Assembly: GCF_963921235.1 (NCBI RefSeq)
Contig: NC_086108.1
Coordinates: 13,764,001 to 13,828,000 of the forward strand
Reading direction: 5' to 3'
Source of the DNA: Mobula hypostoma
Taxonomy: Eukaryota
Length of the DNA: 64,000 nt
Shown here: piece after piece, positions 1-9,179 of the stretch
Position numbering within the stretch: the first letter of the stretch is position 1
Layout of the letters: each line of letters begins with the position of its first letter
Position numbers and translations under genes: made by a program
Notes under the pieces: model-generated
What the model was told of the DNA's origin: nothing
Seen by the model: only the letters and a program-made list of their open reading frames with translations
The model's database searches: none

Positions 1-200
1 GGACCAGGCCTCGAACTGAGCTTCTCCTGGGTTCGGCTTCGTGCTGCGATGCCGTCACCAGCAGAGGGAGCGGTTGCGGGGACGGACAGGGGGCGGGGGC
101 GGGGCAGGACTTCTCGTCGGCCGCCCGGGGTCTGATCCCGATCCCGACCCCGACCCCCCGCTCCCGGCTGTGGGGGGCGAGTGCTGATGGGATCAGTGAA
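1..200. promoter_or_regulatory. CpG-rich promoter-like segment with GC boxes and CTCF-like motif
   Basis: High GC/CpG relative to the rest of the window; tandem GGGGCGGGG boxes at 89-105; CCAGCAGAGGGAGC at 58-71 resembles the CTCF core. Confidence 0.55.
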
Positions 201-1825
201 CGTCTTGTTCTTGTAAATGGTGATTGCAGTCGCCATGAAACTTTAAAGTGCATTATTGCCACCTGCTGAGTTGGAGCGTGGAGCAAAGAGACAGGAAGTG
301 ATCCCACTAAATTCCTCCCCGAACAATGCTTTTCAGAAAGTCAAATACATATTATATACATTACGATGGTAGTGATAACCTAACAAACATGTTAAATTGC
401 GTCTGTCCCAAAGATCTCAGTTCAACAGCAATTGAATAGGTAAGACTCTCCCAACCATTGAGTACATCTACAGGAAACGTTGCCGTAGAAAAGCAGCATC
501 CAACATCGAAGATTCTCTCCACTCAGGCTATGCTATTTTCTCGCTGCTGTCATCAGGTAGAAAGTACAAGAGCCTCAGGACTTACAACATCAAGTTCAAG
601 AACAGTTACTACCCCTTGACCATCAGGCTCTTGAACAATGGGGGATAATTACACTCATTTAAGGACTTTTTTTCTTGTTAATTCATGCTCATTGTTTATT
701 GCTATTTAATCATATCTGCATTTGAACAGTTAGTTTACAGTTTTTGTTCTGTAGATTTGCTATGTCCACAGAAAAAGAATCTCCAGGTTGCCTGTGATGA
801 CATGTATGTACTCTGATAAGAAATTTTACTTTAAAGTTTTGAACCTTGAACTTTGTTTCCTTTGCACTTCTTAGGAACTGCATTTAAATAATATATGCTG
901 CACATATGCAGTCCATACAAATGCCCACATCCTGCATGTTAATTCTGAACAAGGAATTGTTCAACCTAGTATGTCCAGTATGTAAATGTTTATGTATAAC
1001 TTCTTCTTTCCTTTTATACTCATCTCTCAATTGAGTTCCCAGCATCCTCTAAATTTTATATAAATACCATTCTTTCTTTGCCTTATCCCAACTCTGTTGC
1101 CACAGTGAGCAAATAGACTTTTTAATTATGGCTTTCATTTCTCATTTATACAAAGGCAGCACAACATTTACGTCCTTAATTCTAAGTGATTGCTTGGCAA
1201 GAATGTCTGCCACCTCCTCTCCTTCAACCCCAACATGTGCAGGGAGCTGTAAGACATCTACACACAAGCCTGTGTGACTCTGCAGCCTCAACAGATGTTG
1301 TCCAATCTCAAGAAGAATATCTGGTCTACAATTTGAAGTACCTGTTAAAATAGATGTCAAAACCGAGAATGAATCAGAGCACAGAAGCTCATAATCAGAG
1401 TGTACTTCCTCGACCCATTCCAAGGCTAAGATGATATCAATATTCACATCTCGGATGTGAATATTGATACTTTCTCTGATATTCTTTTTTTAATAATCAC
1501 CTGAAACTTTGGAACATAGACAGAAACACCTGAATGATATGTCACTGGATCTTTTGAACCAGCTGTATAGATGTGTAAGGAGCCATAATATATGCTTTGC
1601 ATCTATTGCTGAATTACCTGTGCCATTGATATGCAATCATTCTTCATCTTGAAGGCTTAAATCAACCCAGGCAATGGTAAATACATGGAAGAGCGACAGA
1701 AAAGGGTACACTGGGACTATATTCTACATTAAACGACCCAAGATTTTGTACCCATTCAATTCTCATCCACCCAAAAATGCAGTGCTCACAACACTCTACT
1801 AATGTTACCAATATTGGACGACCCA
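200..1825 (-). mobile_element. Nimb/I-group LINE 3' fragment with RNase H domain (decayed, interrupted)
   Basis: ORF 1142-1447 has SDSFSVL...LPAHVGVEGEEVAD.LAK, an RNase H motif of I-group LINEs; 3' tail near 200-280 (CAGGTGGCAATAATGCAC...AAGAACAAG on -). Confidence 0.65.
437..850 (+). mobile_element. Rex1-like LINE 3' fragment nested in the Nimb-like element
   Basis: Sequence resembles the 3' ends of other Rex1-like copies here (e.g. 23600-23930, 39530-40030); TTGAAC tail. Confidence 0.5.
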
Positions 1826-1829
1826 TTGC

Positions 1830-2270
1830 TTCTGTACTTAGGAGACAGACACTGACTAAGAAGTGAGCTAAAGTGGCATCAACTTCATAGATCCTGTACA
1901 GATTACAGAGGAAGAAGTATTTACTGTCCTGAGGCAAATTAGAGTGGATAAATTCCCAGGGTCTGACAAAGTGTTCCCTTATACCCTGCAGGAGGCAAGT
2001 GCAGAAATTGCTGGGCCCCTGGCAGAGATACTTAAATCATCCTTAGCAACAGGAGAGGTACCAGAGGATTGGAGGATAGCCAATGTTGTTCCACTGTTCA
2101 AGAAAGGCTCTTAAAAATAAACCAGGAAATTATAGGCTGGTGAGCCTGACATCAGTAGAGGGAAAGTTATTGGAAGGTATTCTGAGAGACCAGGTATATA
2201 AGTATTTGGAAAGACATGGAGTGCTTAAGGATAGTTGGCATGGGTTCATGTGTGGTAGGTCATGTCTAAC
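1830..2270 (+). mobile_element. CR1 LINE ORF2 fragment, left part of the copy split by the HERO-like insertion
   Basis: KPGNYRLVSLTSVEGKLLE...HGFMCGRSCLT; continues at 5558. Confidence 0.85.
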
Positions 2271-2332
2271 CTTGTTACATACACTTTTTAGGGTGCATTC
2301 TCCAGTTACTTTATAAGGTAACCGTAACCTTC

Positions 2333-2456
2333 AGCCAGGAGCAGATGTCATCAGGTGGTTCCCAACCTCCACCGAGTGTTTCGACCCCTAACCACGACAC
2401 TCTACAGTTGGTGGGCTGGCAGTGGTGGCCAAATCACTGCCCATCTGCTCCTGGCT
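2333..2456 (-). ncRNA. Putative non-circularly permuted (pseudoknotted) hammerhead ribozyme
   Basis: On -: GAGUGUC(cut)-GUGGUU-AGGGGUC-GAAACACUC...AACCAC-CUGAUGA; stem III GAGUGU/ACACUC, stem I GUGGUU/AACCAC, 15-bp helix 2456-2442/2347-2333; all core nucleotides present. Confidence 0.75.
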
Positions 2457-5330
2457 TCCAGCTCCCCTCCTCTCGCCTACTCCAAATCCAACAAGAGGCT
2501 CATTCTGCTTCTTCCCCCATCCTACGAGCTGCTTGTTTTTTGCTCCTTTCGTCCAGGCCCATATCTGACAACAACCGCCATGCTGATTTGGCTGGGAAAC
2601 CTCTGCAGCCGATCTCCACAGGGAACAACCATGCCTGCCATCCCTTGTCTTTACACTCCTGCAGTAAGGGCTGGTACTTCAAGGTCTTTCTCTCGTGGGC
2701 CCCTTCCCATCCCTCCTCCCACGGCAGTCAACTCAACCAGAATTATTTTCTTGTCTTTGGTTGACCACAGTACAACGTCTGGGAGTTGGGTTGTGTGCAC
2801 CACTTCCGGGAACTGCAACCTCCTTCCCACATTGACCCTCATCTCCCAGGACCTGGCCGTTAGCAGCAGATTGGGCTTTGGTTGTTTGGTTACAAAAGTC
2901 CCAGCTCCCTCTTTGATGAAGGTGATGGCCTTCCTCAAATCTGTGCCAGCCGTCCTCTTCTTGCATCTGTCCCGCTCTAGTGTGTCAGCAAGAGCCAGAA
3001 GCACCTTATCATGGCACCACCTATACCGTCCTTGAGTTAGAGCTGTTTTACACCTGGACAGTATATGAGCCAGTGTCCCCTTTTGACCACAGAGCTTACA
3101 GTTTGGGTCCCCTCTCATCCCCCATGTGTACAGATGTAATGGCGAAAGAAGGGTGTCATACGCAAGAGGAAGGAAATACGGAAGGGCTCCAGTCTCCATA
3201 ACTCTGCCCATGAGATCTTGCGCTTAGGCAGATCCCATTCTGTCCAGGCACCCTGGGACCCTTGTTCCACTGCCTTTGAAATCTGCTTCTCTTCCTCACG
3301 GATCCGTACTTCTGCCTGTATCATGTCTCGCCTGTTCTTTATGCTTGCATTTCCCCACTTCTGGAAGTGAACTGAGCCGAGGCCTTGCCGTCTGACGCAG
3401 GGGTTGCTGATGATATCTCGCAGCTTCAGAAAACACACTGCCTCCTTCACAGTTGCGTGGGCTGCCCACTTGCGCCCAGATCTGGTTGTAACGCCTGCTT
3501 GCTTTACCAAGACGTCACTGGAATCTCTAAAGCTTAATAAAGCTCTGCATTTTGCCACCTTGAATTCCTCCACAACAGATGACAGGGGAAGCTGCAGTTG
3601 CCCAGAACAAATGTAGAGGCCCACTGAAGAGAAGCTTAGGGGAACTCCCAACCATCTCTGCAGGTGCTTGTTGGTTTTCCTCTCGATGCCCTCTACGACA
3701 GTCATGGGGAACTCATAAAGTGTGAAGAGCCAGAGAAGCCTGGGCGGAAGGCCGTATTGGTACAGCCAGGTCTTGAATTTACCGGGAAGTCCGAATTTGT
3801 CGATCTTCTTCAGCCATTTGTCTGTCTGCTTCACAGCATTGGTGACATTGGTCCCATCTGTCAGTGACACATTAAACCACTTCCCCAAGCATTTTATCGG
3901 GTTATCTTTGATGGAAGGGATGACCTCACCCTGAACCTGGAGGCTAAACTTGCTAGTAACTTTGCCCTTTCTGATCACCATACACCTGGACTTCTTGGCC
4001 TTGAAGGCCATCCTCACCCAAGTGGCTACATTACCCAGGGTATCCAATACCCATCTTGCTTCGACATGTGACACAGTTGTTATAGTGATGTCATCCATGA
4101 ACCCTCGTAGAGCCGGCTGAACAATGCCTGACTCCAGCATCCAGCGGGTTACATCTTCTGCTGCTGATAATAGGAGGTTCATTCCCATAATAAATAGGGT
4201 GGGGGAGATGGTGCACCCCGTTGGAATCCCCTTCTGGAGCTCCTGCCAACTAGTTGTGAAATGGGCTGATGTAAATCTGAGTTTGAACCCTCCTAGGTAG
4301 CTGGTGATTATGTCTCGAATAGCTACTGGGATGTAGTAGTGGTCAAATCCTTCTAGGATGAGGTCATGTGGGATAGACCCTAGGCGTTCGCGAGGTCTAA
4401 CCAGACAACTGTTAGGTCGCCTTTTTTCTGCTTGGCCTCATGGATCAAATAGCTAATCATTGAGGTGTGTTCCAGACACCCCGAAAAGCCTGGAATACCG
4501 CCTTTCTGGATGGATGTGTTGATATAGCGGTTCTGCGTCATGTAAGAAGTCAGCCTTCTTGCGAGCACAGAAAAGAAAATCTTACATTCCACATCCAGGA
4601 GAGAAATTGTCCTAAACTGAGCAATTGTGGAAGAAACCTCTTCCTTTAGAATAAAGCATCCCTCTGCCAATTTCCAACTTGATGGAATAGTAGCAATTGT
4701 GGAAGAAACCTCTTCCTTTAGAATAAAGCATCCCTCTGCCAATTTCCAACTTGATGGAATAGTACCTTTGGCCCAGATTTTGCTCATGACCTTCCACAGC
4801 CTCCGAAGAAGTTTTGGGCATTTCTTACACACCATATAAGGTATGCCGCTTGGGCCTGGGGCAGCTGATCCTTTAGCTTTCTGGATGATGTCCTGGATTT
4901 CCTGCCATGTAGGCCATTTGATCCTGTCTTTCCTTGACGAATGGATTGGGGTAGCCGAAGAGGAACTCACTAGGTCTGTTGTTTGGTGCTGAGGCGACTC
5001 AAGTGTGGAGAGATCTTCAGCTCCGTGGGGAGCTTCCTGGCTGGAATTCTCCTTCGTCTCACCGGACACTAAGTTCATGTGCTGCACTTGGGTCACCATT
5101 GATCCACATCTAGACTTACTCTAGTGTATCTTGAACCCTCTGATGTTTTTGCAGACTTTCCTGCAATGACGCCTCACCGTGAATTCCTCTCCGGTCAGTG
5201 TTGTTTGCTTTAGCTTCCTCGGAGTCGTGTTTTCTGTCCTGGCTGTTGCCGGTATGACCGTACTGTTGAGTCTCTCATCCTCCCCCTCTCTCGGGAGACT
5301 CTGGGGGTATTGCTCTTCGTGTTCAGTCGT
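2434..5330 (-). pseudogene. Disrupted single ORF of the HERO-like element (ZnF-RT-CCHC-RLE)
   Basis: Pieces 5121-5354, 4380-5099, 3115-4188, 2651-3211, 2500-2682, then ...SCWIWSRREEGSWKPGADGQ* ending at TGA 2436-2434; stops and frameshifts between pieces; 5' start approximate. Confidence 0.8.
4620..4763. repeat. Perfect 72-bp in-frame tandem duplication within the HERO-like RT
   Basis: 4620-4691 = 4692-4763; peptide TIPSSWKLAEGCFILKEEVSSTIA occurs twice. Confidence 0.95.
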
Positions 5331-5476
5331 AGCCTGAGCGGTGCCCTCTTGCAAGTGCTGCCCACAAGGTTACTAGCCTTGTGAGCCCGTGCCAGTCTTT
5401 CCTGGAGGTCAGCTGTCTCTCCAGCATCACCGACCTTCCTCGGTTGCCATCCAGTCTTTCCTGGAAGCCAATGGTA

Positions 5477-5557
5477 CTTGTTACATACACCTGTTAGGGT
5501 GCATTCTCCAGTTACCTTATAAGGTAACTGTAGCCTTCAGCCAGGAGCAGATGTCAT
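5477..5557 (-). repeat. 81-bp direct repeat of the element's 3' tail (2271-2351) at its 5' end
   Basis: Ungapped alignment, 76/81 identical. Confidence 0.95.
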
Positions 5558-6680
5558 AAAGTCTTATAAAGTCATTCAAGAAAGTTACCAGGAAAGTTGA
5601 TGAAGGCGAGGCAGTGAATGTTCTCTACATGGACTTTAGTAAGGCATTTGACAAGATCCCATGGGAATTTGGTCAAGAAGGTTCAGTTGCTTGGCATTCA
5701 AGATGAGGTAATAAATTGGATTAGACATTGGCTTTGTGGGAGAAGCCACAGAGTGGTAGTAGATGGTTTCCTCTCTGATGAAGGCCTACGGCAGAGATAG
5801 GTGCTGGGTCCATTGTTATTTGTCATCAATATCAATGATCTGAATGATAATGTGGTTAATTGGATCAGCAAATTTGCAGATGACACCAAGACTGGGGTGT
5901 AGTGGTCAGCGAGGAAGGCTATCATGGTTTGCAGTGGGATCTGGACCAGCTGGAAAAGTGGGCTGAAAAATGGCAGATGGAATTTAATACAGACAAATGC
6001 GAGGTTTTGTACTTCTGCAGGACAAACCAGGGTAGGTTTTACATAGTGAACGGTGGGGCACTGAGGAGTATGGTAGGACAAAGGGATCTGGGAATACAGA
6101 TCCATAATTTGTTGAAACTGGCGTCATAGGGAAATAGAGTCGTATAGAAAATTTCTGGTATATTGGCTTCATAAATCAAAGTATTGAGTGCAGGAGATGG
6201 GATGTGATGTTGAAATTGTATAAGATATTGGTGAGGCCTAATTTGGAGTATTGTGTGTATTTTTGGTCACCCACCTGCAGAAAAGATGTAAACAAGATTG
6301 AAAGAGTACAGAGAAAATTTTAAAGGATGTTACCAGGTGTAGAAGACAAGAATCATAAGGAAAGATTGAATAGGTTAGAATTTTATTCATTGGAATGTAG
6401 AAAACTGAGAAGAGATTTGATAGGGGTATGCAAATTTGAGGGGCAGAGATAGGGTAAATGCAAGCAGGCTCTTTCCACTGGGGTTGGGTGGGACAACAAC
6501 CGTAGGTCATGGGTTAAGGGTGAAAGTGAAAAAGTTGAAGGAGATCATGAGGGGAAACTTCTGTGGAATGGACTGCCAACACAAGTGGTGCATGCAGACT
6601 CGATATCAACATTTCAGAGAAGTTTGGATAGGTACATAGATCGTTGGGGATGTGGAGGGCTGTGGTCCCAATGCACACAC
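5558..6680 (+). mobile_element. CR1 LINE ORF2 fragment, right part
   Basis: YMDFSKAFDK, KFADDTK, LEKWAEKWQMEFN motifs. Confidence 0.85.
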
Positions 6681-8509
6681 TAGCTCTCCCACACCCCTCG
6701 GACTCCATACCACACCACATCTCAGGAAAGACATGAAGGTTTGGGAGAGGGACAGAGATTTGGTGAAATGATGACATTTATGGTTCTATTACTATTTATT
6801 ATTTATGGAGCAACTGTAATGAAAACCAATTTCCCCCAGGATTAATAAAGTATGACTATGACTATGACATAGGAGCAGAATTAGCTCATTAGGCCTATTG
6901 AGTCTCCTCTGCCACTTCACCATGGCTCATTTATTTTCCATCTCAACCCCAATCTCTTCCCATAGCCTTTGATGTCCTCACTAACAAAGAACCTTTCAAC
7001 CTCCAGTTTAACTACACCCAATGACTTGGTATCCACAGCTGCCTGTGACAATGTATTCCATAGATTTAAGACTCTCTGGCTAAAAATATTCCTGGTCCTC
7101 TTTGTCTAAAGGGTAGTCCTTGTACCCTGAGGCTTTGTCCTGTAATCCTTAGATTCTGCCACTATTGGAAACTTATCTAGGGCTTTCAATATTCAGTGGG
7201 TTTCAATGAGATTCTACCCCCCCCCCATACTTCTAAACACCAATGCCTACAGGTTCCTTAAGGATATTATACCCCAGGGGTGGTATTAAATGCACCCAAT
7301 GGCATGTGTCTCAAATAGCCTCTAACAACTAAGTCCAGCTCCTGGCCTTCACGTCCGGTGGAACCGTTTCTAGTGATAGGAGAAGGGGCAAAGGCAGGTT
7401 ATTGGCACTTAAAACCTGTCGCTTCGGGCAGATGAGACTCGTTAGCCAACTTGTTTCATCTGCCAACTTACAAATCATGAATGTGGATATTTCAAACAAT
7501 AATAATTCCAACACTGATCCCTGTGGTACACCACTAGTTACGGTCTTCCAGTCCCTAAAAAAAAATCCTCATAACCTCCATCTAATCAGCATCTGCAACA
7601 CTAGTTCTTGTCCACTCTATTATTTTTGCTCTGAGGAAAATAACCGGAGGTTTTTCAGTCTGGTATGATGGCTGATATCCCTCACACCGTCGGCCATCTC
7701 AGTAAAACTTTACTAAACTCACTGAAAACTTCACACCCTTGATTAAGTTGGTGAACACTATTGGATGCCGTGCTCCAGTATTTTATACAGGTTTGATATT
7801 ACTGTCCTGGATCTCTACCTTGTGCCAGTGCTTTTGAATTACAGCATCCCAAAGTTTGGAGTGTTCTAAAATTATTTATAAACTGCATTCAAAGTCCCCG
7901 GCAGTCTTGGTGGAAATTGATCTGTCCCTTCTACATCCTCTGTTCCCAGGATTTCACAGTGCTCCCAGGTGAAACAGCACTTCTTGCAATTGAGTATACT
8001 TCAGCCAGTGTTCACCATATGGTCTTGTCAGCACCTGAGAAACCATACAGGGGGGATAATTTTGCAGAACACCTCCATTCTGTCTGTATCACCTTTTACT
8101 TCAGTCTTCCGCACCATTCCCATTCAAATTTCTCTGTTCTGACCTTCAGCACTGGTTCATTAAAGTCCAAAATAAACTTGAAACTACCACCACAAGTGAG
8201 AAGCTTCTTAACCCCAATTCCATGTATAATCTTTCTCTAACTCTCCCTCTCCCTCTATCTCCCCTCCCCCTCCCCGTCCTCTCCCCTCCCTCCCCTCTCA
8301 CTCTCCTTCCTCACCCTCTTCTTCCCCCCTCCCACCCTCCCTCTCCCTCTACTCCTCCCTTTGGGTCACCATCCCTTTCCCTGACACCACCGTCTCTACC
8401 ACACCCAACTTCCTCTCACACTTGTCACTGACATTCTCTCTCTTTCTCCCAGTGCCACCTTCTCTCTCTCCCCCTCACCCAGGTGCATGCTCTCTCTATT
8501 TTACTTGGG

Positions 8510-8900
8510 GTCCATCCATAGCTCCCTGAGAGTGGCAACTCAATTAGATGAGGTGACAAAGAAGGCATATGGCGTGCATTGTTTGCCTTCATTGGTCACG
8601 GCATCGAGTATAAAAGTCAGGAAGTCAGGTTGCAGCTGCATGAAACATTAGTTAGGCTGCATTTTATGTTTTGTGTGCAGTTCTAGTTACCACATTACAG
8701 GAAGGATGTGGAGGCTTCAGCAAGGGTGCAGAAGATTTAACCAGGATTCGGTCTGGATTAGCGAGCATGAGCGTGAAGGATAGGCTGTGCAGACCTGGTT
8801 TGTTTTCTTTGAAGCATCAGAGACCGAGAGGAGGCCCAAGAGAAGTTTCTAAAATGATGGGAAACATAGATTGGTTATACATTCAGAATCCTTGTCCCAC
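8510..8900 (+). mobile_element. Decayed CR1 3' fragment
   Basis: Similar to the CR1 C-terminus (CVQF..PHYRKDV). Confidence 0.6.
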
Positions 8901-9179
8901 AGTCTGTCAAACAGCAGAGGGTAAAGTTCAACCTAAAAGAGTGTAGCAGGGGAACAAACACTTTGAACCACAGTGTCTGGGGCAAAAACAATGCAGTATT
9001 AAACTAATGTTCTTATTCATGCACAGGACCCACCTCCTATTCAGTTCATTCATGTGTCTAGCAACCTTTTAAACACCACTGTATGCAGGGATAGAGGGAC
9101 ATAGATCATAAGCAGGTAGATGTTTGGCACAGTCATATTGGATGTAAGTGCCTAGTGCTGTGTTGCACTGTTCTGTTTT

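What the first reader, a model, noticed from the sequence alone, without database searches (positions are those of the whole stretch)
2271..5557. Non-LTR element with an LTR-like 81-bp terminal redundancy lying wholly downstream of the ribozyme cut
Seen: the 3' tail (2271-2351) is repeated directly before the 5' UTR (5477-5557, 76/81 identity). The repeat is element sequence, not a TSD, because the CR1 host reads continuously across the insertion (...TGTCTAAC | AAAGTCTTATAAAG...). The 5' copy starts inside CUGAUGA, 44 nt past the predicted cut. Inference: this resembles Penelope pseudo-LTRs. The template could be a tandem/read-through transcript cut at an upstream ribozyme, or a circular RNA copied for more than one unit. 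Either would link ribozyme cleavage to RLE-LINE replication.
Basis: partly seen in the sequence, partly recalled or inferred. Interest (0 to 1): 0.78.

Follow-up and report, generated by a model that had tools for sequence, protein, structure and literature searches.

The report
LINE with rewired hammerhead, rolling-circle footprint
This dead jumping-gene copy belongs to a family in which most near-full-length copies carry a variable-length piece of their own tail in front of their head, and the tail holds a conserved RNA fold with a hammerhead core in an unusual strand order, which likely cuts the RNA to unit length so that it would be closed into a circle and copied more than once round.

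Summary
The 81-bp terminal repeat is real (76/81), but it is one draw from a family-wide spread. Of 75 genomic copies reaching the element's head, 48 carry their own tail in front. The lengths run from 11 to over 2,200 nt, and the tail-to-head joint is seamless in 46 of 48. 3' ends are fixed. The element is an RLE (R2-superfamily, likely HERO/Zebulon-type) LINE; partial tandems were reported for Zebulon in 2003 (title seen, content recalled). The stronger finding is the ribozyme. A six-helix hammerhead-core fold lies at 36 of 39 related ORF ends, with strong covariation. It has the pseudoknotted S-G-C order known only from metatranscriptome RNAs, but stem II comes from upstream, so the chain is opened between A9 and G10.1. 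I found no description of this wiring. Best model (55%): two ribozyme cuts, ligation into a 3.7-kb circle, internal priming, copying past one turn. Cleavage and circles are untested. The scan noted this family twice before on other DNA of this genome.

The parts
2271..5557 (-). Whole insertion: 81-nt tail copy plus one decayed unit of an RLE non-LTR retrotransposon (family unit about 3,726 nt)
   Evidence: aligns to natural copy L095 at 92-93%
5477..5557 (-). 5' copy of the 3' tail (partial tandem); too short to hold a ribozyme, which needs about 181 nt
2271..2351 (-). 3'-terminal 81 nt, with two terminal stem-loops; ends at the family's fixed 3' end, no poly(A)
2338..2451 (-). Permuted hammerhead-core fold: P0 2451-2442/2347-2338; hairpin 2441-2418; stem II 2417-2413/2387-2383; I-II helix 2411-2407/2366-2362; stem III 2402-2397/2379-2374; C17 at 2396; stem I 2395-2390/2360-2355; GAAA 2382-2379; CUGAUGA 2354-2348. 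G10.1 is changed to A in this copy
2434..5476 (-). Broken single ORF region: head hairpins, N-terminal Cys/His finger, RT, CCHC finger, restriction-like endonuclease; its stop codon lies inside the ribozyme's 5' hairpin
   Evidence: stop position read from the sequence
4907..4913 (-). Site of a deletion of about 570 nt (unit 585-1155) in this copy
4620..4763 (.). Perfect 72-bp tandem duplication private to this copy
1872..2270 (+). Host LINE fragment, left of the insertion (CR1 label recalled from its motifs; outer limit approximate)
5558..6660 (+). Host LINE fragment, right of the insertion, continuing the left part (outer limit approximate)

Best explanation
The repeat is one case of a family-wide partial tandem in an RLE-type LINE, likely made because reverse transcription primes at a fixed internal site on a circular, unit-length RNA and runs past one turn. 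Shown: fixed 3' end, seamless tail-to-head joint, smooth spread of repeat lengths across the cut site, and a conserved hammerhead-core fold 125 nt before the 3' end. Inferred: a copy whose 5' repeat is at least about 181 nt has two ribozymes one unit apart; read-through transcription and two cuts would free a 3.7-kb monomer with 5'-OH and cyclic-phosphate ends; ligation would close it; the element's endonuclease and RT would prime 125 nt past the seal; synthesis would tend to stop near one full turn. Long-repeat progeny would be new source copies. Short-repeat ones, like this one, would be dead ends.
For: 3' ends: 25 of 29 host-bounded ends lie within +0..+4 of one site. 5' ends: 48 of 75 copies cross the joint, 32 of 48 pass -125, 27 of 48 hold a whole ribozyme; joint free of indels in 46 of 48. 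Repeats reach 2,239 nt (L093), and L129 crosses the joint twice. 26 of 30 copies reaching unit position ~320 end between +294 and -260, against at most 17 of 42 in the first 570 nt of a first pass. No two independent copies share a 5' host flank. No scar at the cut: 1 indel in 7 positions over 135 sequences, background 0.22 per position. TSDs, where clear (3 of 32 complete copies), enclose repeat and unit together. Long repeats share rare alleles and deletions with their own unit: L104 13 alleles and a 15-nt deletion, L121 10 alleles, a 14-nt and a 1-nt deletion. Ribozyme: 91% of cells paired against 67% shuffled and 35-45% slid; 31 of 38 pairs change on both sides; found at 36 of 39 related ORF ends. 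Tail runs into head in 14 of those 39 contig ends. Precedent for cut-ligate-copy-round models: retrozymes and Penelope (passages).
Against: No RNA evidence: cleavage, ligation and circles are untested. The two repeats of one copy are not always from one source: 23 of 123 transversion sites disagree where about 1-2 would by chance, and 3 of the 9 longest pairs share no rare allele. This can be later gene conversion, since L102 and L118 are about 1% apart over their heads and 4-12% elsewhere. But conversion could equally have made the shared rare alleles, so that test is confounded both ways. Two copies do end at -124/-125. A hammerhead with helices inserted between A9 and G10.1 may not cleave. 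A capless circle needs an unshown way to be translated. The tail-to-head contigs of relatives are short-read assemblies, and 7 pairs among the 39 ends are near duplicates.
Confidence: 0.55

Rival explanations
1. Linear tandem template. Only the upstream ribozyme cuts, or none does; RT copies a terminally redundant linear RNA, and long repeats are renewed by homologous switching onto the 3' part of the same or another RNA.
For: Seamless joints and no scar at the cut fit. Repeat pairs from different sources and weak linkage along the element (r2 about 0.1) fit switching. Penelope tandems are transcribed from the upstream partner.
Against: An RNA cut at -125 should give a hard stop there: 2 of 48. 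Uncut read-through should sometimes carry 5' host flank: none shared among 75 copies. The same fold would have to cut in one place and not in the other. Linkage does not decay with distance (permutation p = 0.11), and conversion explains some mosaics.
Confidence: 0.27
2. Cut linear monomers, never ligated; RT jumps end to end at the cut, as R2 RT can (recalled; title seen).
For: Gives unit-length periodicity and mixed-source repeats; two copies end at -124/-125.
Against: Every copy longer than 125 nt would need a jump. No 125-nt stand-alone copy among 42 (nearest 129), and no extra indels at the cut in 135 sequences.
Confidence: 0.1
3. Two separate events: a copy inserts at the head or tail of an earlier one, or a DNA-level duplication, with no link to the ribozyme.
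For: Some LINEs and Penelope elements insert beside their own copies.
Against: 46 of 48 joints are unbroken, without the short 3' repeats or host letters seen at true 3' ends. TSDs enclose both parts. Stand-alone copies sit in varied flanks.
Confidence: 0.05

Closest known systems
Zebulon / HERO-clade non-LTR retrotransposons (Bouneau et al. 2003, Genome Res 13:1686; title seen in a reference list; text not held; content recalled)
   Same: Fish-type RT plus restriction-like endonuclease element with partial tandem structure and no strict target; HERO described as the mostly non-specific RLE clade.
   Different: I recall no ribozyme or circular-RNA model for it, and searches found none. Sequence identity to Zebulon itself was not measured.
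Type-SGC hammerhead ribozymes (Eckert et al. 2023, PMC10085705; parts 3-5 of 8, passages and a supplement search read)
   Same: Order cleavage site, GAAA, CUGAnGA; short linker from stem I to stem II; extra helix tying stems I and II.
   Different: There stem II follows CUGAnGA directly, and the paper says no known alignment has more than 1-2 nt inserted there. Here stem II's 5' strand lies upstream, and a closing helix plus a hairpin sit between A9 and G10.1. SGC RNAs were not found in genomes of known organisms; these sit in animal LINEs.
Penelope-like elements with pseudo-LTRs (PMC8557442 passages; PMC6765202 section 11)
   Same: Full copy preceded by a 5'-truncated copy; hammerhead inside the repeated tail; circle model proposed.
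   Different: Different RT and GIY-YIG nuclease, minimal type I dimer hammerheads, frequent inverted copies; none of the 51 loci shows an inverted copy.
Retrozymes (PMC7229834 and PMC7761336, passages)
   Same: Ribozymes one unit apart yield circles, shown in vivo; cDNA of more than one unit proposed.
   Different: Non-coding, 170-1,000 nt, type I or III hammerheads; this element is 3.7 kb and autonomous.
R2 with a 5' HDV-like ribozyme (PMC6765202 section 11)
   Same: Same protein superfamily (E 1e-15 to solved R2 proteins); ribozyme frees the RNA from a read-through transcript.
   Different: HDV-like fold at the 5' end, fixed rDNA target, no terminal redundancy.

Membership tests
R2 superfamily (RLE) non-LTR retrotransposon | Single ORF with N-terminal finger, RT, CCHC finger and restriction-like endonuclease | tested here: met
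   RVT_1, zf-RVT and a weak restriction-endonuclease hit; best solved relatives are R2 proteins; 422 homologs
HERO clade | RT phylogeny groups with HERO reference elements | not testable with these tools
   No named HERO sequence was available. Indirect: bivalve homologs at 45-58% identity, and a paper finds Hero the only R2-type clade in bivalves
HERO clade | Mostly no strict target site | tested here: met
   Varied flanks; definition
Zebulon | Partial tandem structure | tested here: met
   48 of 75 copies; the feature rests on the paper's title and recall
Zebulon | Close sequence likeness to the pufferfish element | not tested
   No Zebulon sequence obtained; the second homolog search could not be made
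Type-SGC hammerhead | Block order S-G-C with crossing stems I, II, III and a I-II helix | tested here: met
Type-SGC hammerhead | Stem II begins directly after CUGAnGA (intact block C) | tested here: not met
   2.48 of 5 pairs there against 2.32 in the cross-family control; upstream strand 4.83 of 5, first pair G-C in 26 of 29
Hammerhead ribozymes | Site-specific self-cleavage after NUH | not testable with these tools
   Needs a bench assay; no Rfam family matches
Penelope-like elements | GIY-YIG endonuclease and Penelope-type RT | tested here: not met
   No GIY-YIG hit; R2-type protein
Penelope-like elements | Partial tandem forming a pseudo-LTR that holds a hammerhead | tested here: met
   (works-like only)
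Retrozymes | Non-coding, short unit | tested here: not met
   3.7-kb unit with an ORF
Retrozymes | Circular RNA in vivo | not testable with these tools
   Only assembled contigs were offered
LTR retrotransposons | Fixed-length terminal repeats and integrase | tested here: not met
   Repeat length 0 to over 2,200 nt; no integrase hit

The most novel reading that the evidence does not exclude
A whole clade of autonomous animal LINEs replicates through a 3.7-kb circular RNA made by a new hammerhead architecture (pseudoknotted, core opened between A9 and G10.1, overlapping the ORF's stop codon), with internal priming on the circle: a protein-coding, TPRT-driven counterpart of retrozymes and viroid-like circles.
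Probability: 0.45. Interest if true: 0.88.

Novelty: new variant of a known kind. Interest (0 to 1): 0.72.

Why it matters
LINEs are defined as lacking terminal repeats and as priming at the 3' end of a linear RNA. If this clade uses a ribozyme-made circle, the unexplained partial tandems of Zebulon-type elements get a mechanism, and the long-proposed but unproven circle model for Penelope pseudo-LTRs becomes testable in an R2-like enzyme for which biochemistry exists. The fold itself breaks an assumption used in hammerhead searches (stem II next to CUGAnGA), so such searches would miss it. It would be the first pseudoknot-permuted hammerhead tied to animal genomes that I could find, with dozens of natural variants ready for assay.

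Tried and rejected
Rfam: nothing but one chance snoRNA hit in window 1-9000 and nothing in 6 relatives. Plain MFE folding misses the core. Canonical stem II after CUGAUGA: rejected. Pistol or twister readings: considered from recall only and dropped once the hammerhead core covaried. Pile-up at the cut: 2 of 48 second-pass ends and 0 of 42 first-pass ends at -124/-125. Repeat-versus-unit haplotypes as proof of one template: confounded by gene conversion. Linkage against linear or circular distance: no trend. No RNA holder listed; only contigs, which cannot show ends or circles; one contig of an unlabelled run bridges the tail-to-head joint. Viral contigs: no relative. One search used a wrongly delimited unit and was redone. 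12 of 41 descriptor hits were dropped before counting (3 judged false, 9 duplicates or second copies). The descriptor itself demands the core letters, so their conservation is not independent; the 7 ORF-end hits added by the model also have H17 not G, but 3 have G12 changed. Bouneau 2003 and one recalled classification paper are not held. A second homolog search to place Zebulon could not be made, which leaves clade membership open.

Full report
Observation. Window 2271-2351 and 5477-5557 are direct repeats with 5 mismatches in 81. The element reads on the minus strand, so the repeat is its 3' tail placed before its head. Each host flank aligned separately to 3 intact host-LINE copies closes to within 1-4 nt, so the repeat is not a target duplication. 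The CR1 label for the host is recalled from its motifs.

What the element is. Broken frames give RT, zf-RVT and a weak restriction-endonuclease hit. A less broken natural copy (L100) is closest to solved R2 proteins (E 1e-15) and has 422 homologs; the named ones among the 120 listed are from fish, lancelets and bivalves, and listed identities run 45-73%. HERO is described as the mostly non-specific RLE clade, and as the only R2-type clade in bivalves, so HERO is likely but was not tested by a tree. The unit is about 3,726 nt. This copy lacks about 570 nt, has a 72-bp duplication and lacks 14 nt at the tail-to-head joint: it is dead.

The repeat across the family. The first search used a query holding the tail and was biased, so I searched with head-only queries. 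These gave 120 loci and 76 distinct rows; one row duplicates another locus, leaving 75. 22 end inside the head, 5 within 10 nt of the joint, and 48 cross it: 16 by up to 125 nt and 32 by more. 27 of the 48 are long enough (182 nt or more) to hold a whole ribozyme. The longest seen are 2,239, 1,925, 1,775 and 1,678 nt. L129 crosses the joint twice. The joint has no indel in 46 of 48; the window copy is one of the two exceptions. Only 2 of 48 end at -124/-125. Searches score 40 candidates each, of about 180-250 for the head and 1,200-1,300 for the tail, so these are samples.

3' ends and flanks. Of 30 loci found by a 3' UTR query, 29 end in host DNA and 25 of these within +0..+4 of one site, often with a short repeat of the last letters and no poly(A). 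Clear TSDs occur in 3 of 32 complete copies and enclose repeat and unit together. No two independent copies share a 5' flank (one segmental duplicate counted once). Stops crowd near one full unit: 26 of 30 copies that reach unit position ~320 end between +294 and -260, while at most 17 of 42 end within the first 570 nt of a first pass (some of those are internal deletions).

The ribozyme. Rfam finds nothing. A scan of metagenome contigs gave 74 loci with relatives at 36-83% identity to the query. At 39 ORF ends with 200 nt or more of room, a descriptor finds the motif in 29 and a covariance model adds 7; 7 pairs are near duplicates. The order is: P0 5' strand, hairpin, stem II 5', I-II helix 5', stem III 5', H17, stem I 5', stem II 3', GAAA, stem III 3', I-II helix 3', stem I 3', CUGAnGA, P0 3'. 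On an alignment of 22 sequences, 91.1% of cells pair against 67.4% shuffled and 35-45% slid; 31 of 38 pairs change on both sides, in all six helices. The structure was read from these sequences, which favours it in the slid control. In 29 motifs the letters after CUGAnGA do not pair with those before GAAA (2.48 of 5, control 2.32), while the upstream strand does (4.83, control 4.0 with the same best-of-window search), starting with G-C in 26 of 29. In this genome 14 of 37 3' ribozymes keep all 16 core letters; the window copy has G10.1 changed to A. In 14 of the 39 ends the contig runs from tail into the next head, so the joint is clade-wide, with the caveat of short-read assembly.

Do both repeats come from one template? 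Across 31 copies with both repeats, segregating sites agree in 115 of 144 cases against 81 expected, and 100 of 123 transversion sites against 79. L104 and L121 share 13 and 10 rare alleles and rare deletions between their repeats. But 23 disagreements are far above chance, and L101, L115 and L117 share no rare allele. One search shows that copies exchange sequence after insertion (L102 and L118 are about 1% apart over the head and 4-12% elsewhere). So this test leans towards one template but is confounded both ways.

Mechanism. I commit to the circle model at 55%. Read-through of a long-repeat copy would pass two ribozymes one unit apart; two cuts and ligation would give a unit circle; priming at the fixed site 125 nt past the seal and copying beyond one turn would give seamless repeats of any length. 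It explains the fixed internal 3' end, the smooth passage through -125, the lack of a scar there (1 indel in 7 positions over 135 sequences), the lack of 5' flank carry-over, and the renewal of long repeats. Cleavage, ligation, circles and priming are all inferred. Rivals: linear tandem RNA with homologous switching (27%), end-to-end jumps between cut monomers (10%), separate insertions (5%).

Comparison with what is known. An earlier scan note pointed me to Zebulon. I saw only the title of Bouneau et al. 2003 (text not held), and recall that it reports partial tandems, so the tandem itself is likely known. Eckert et al. 2023 (parts 3-5 of 8, passages, supplement search) validated type-SGC hammerheads, found none in genomes of known organisms, and assumed stem II sits next to CUGAnGA; this fold has the SGC order but fails that feature. 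Penelope pseudo-LTRs and retrozymes are the functional parallels (PMC6765202 section 11; passages of PMC8557442, PMC7761336, PMC7229834). Passages of PMC13725137, PMC10162972, PMC13580325, PMC7650587, PMC7599744 and PMC2684134 added no description of it. Ten searches listed no paper linking a hammerhead to HERO or Zebulon. The library lacks most subscription journals and Repbase Reports, and I did not see Eckert's figures, so a prior description is not excluded.

Verdict. Observation confirmed, interpretation partly supported. A known kind of element with a likely known tandem habit, plus a conserved ribozyme-like fold of apparently undescribed wiring that makes a circular-RNA route testable. 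My ribozyme and family results came before I saw the two earlier notes on this genome, which reach a similar reading; they are not independent support. Interest 0.72; new variant of a known kind.

Noticed in passing
window 2434-2451 (- strand): The ORF's last codons form the 5' strand of helix P0 and its stop codon lies in the ribozyme's hairpin, so a terminating ribosome could unfold the ribozyme.
   Followed up: no
window 5380-5476 (- strand); L142, L148, L155, L159, L167, L196, L197 heads: The head holds repeated short hairpins with purine-rich six-base loops, conserved across distant families; in L099 the frame is open from the joint. Candidate protein-binding or cap-free translation element.
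   Followed up: partly
L102 and L118 (same contig, 6 Mb apart): About 1% apart over the 5' repeat's last 186 nt and the first 400 nt of the head, 4-12% further on: recent ectopic gene conversion between dispersed LINE copies.
   Followed up: partly
L091-L141: Segregating sites of the family are weakly linked, with all four allele pairs common at short distance; cause unresolved.
   Followed up: partly
L147:85-7266: Two different families (68% DNA identity) joined tail to head without a visible seam; real cross-family tandem or assembly chimera.
   Followed up: no
L099, L100, L128, L217: The few clear TSDs are long (about 30-60 nt); most insertions have none.
   Followed up: partly
L181:4983-5105, L182:527-649: The fold occurs away from the end of the matched ORF in two distant relatives, perhaps in another or non-autonomous element.
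   Followed up: no
listing: Many homologs come from contigs of 3.6-4.0 kb, the unit length; expected for collapsed repeats as well as for circles.
   Followed up: no
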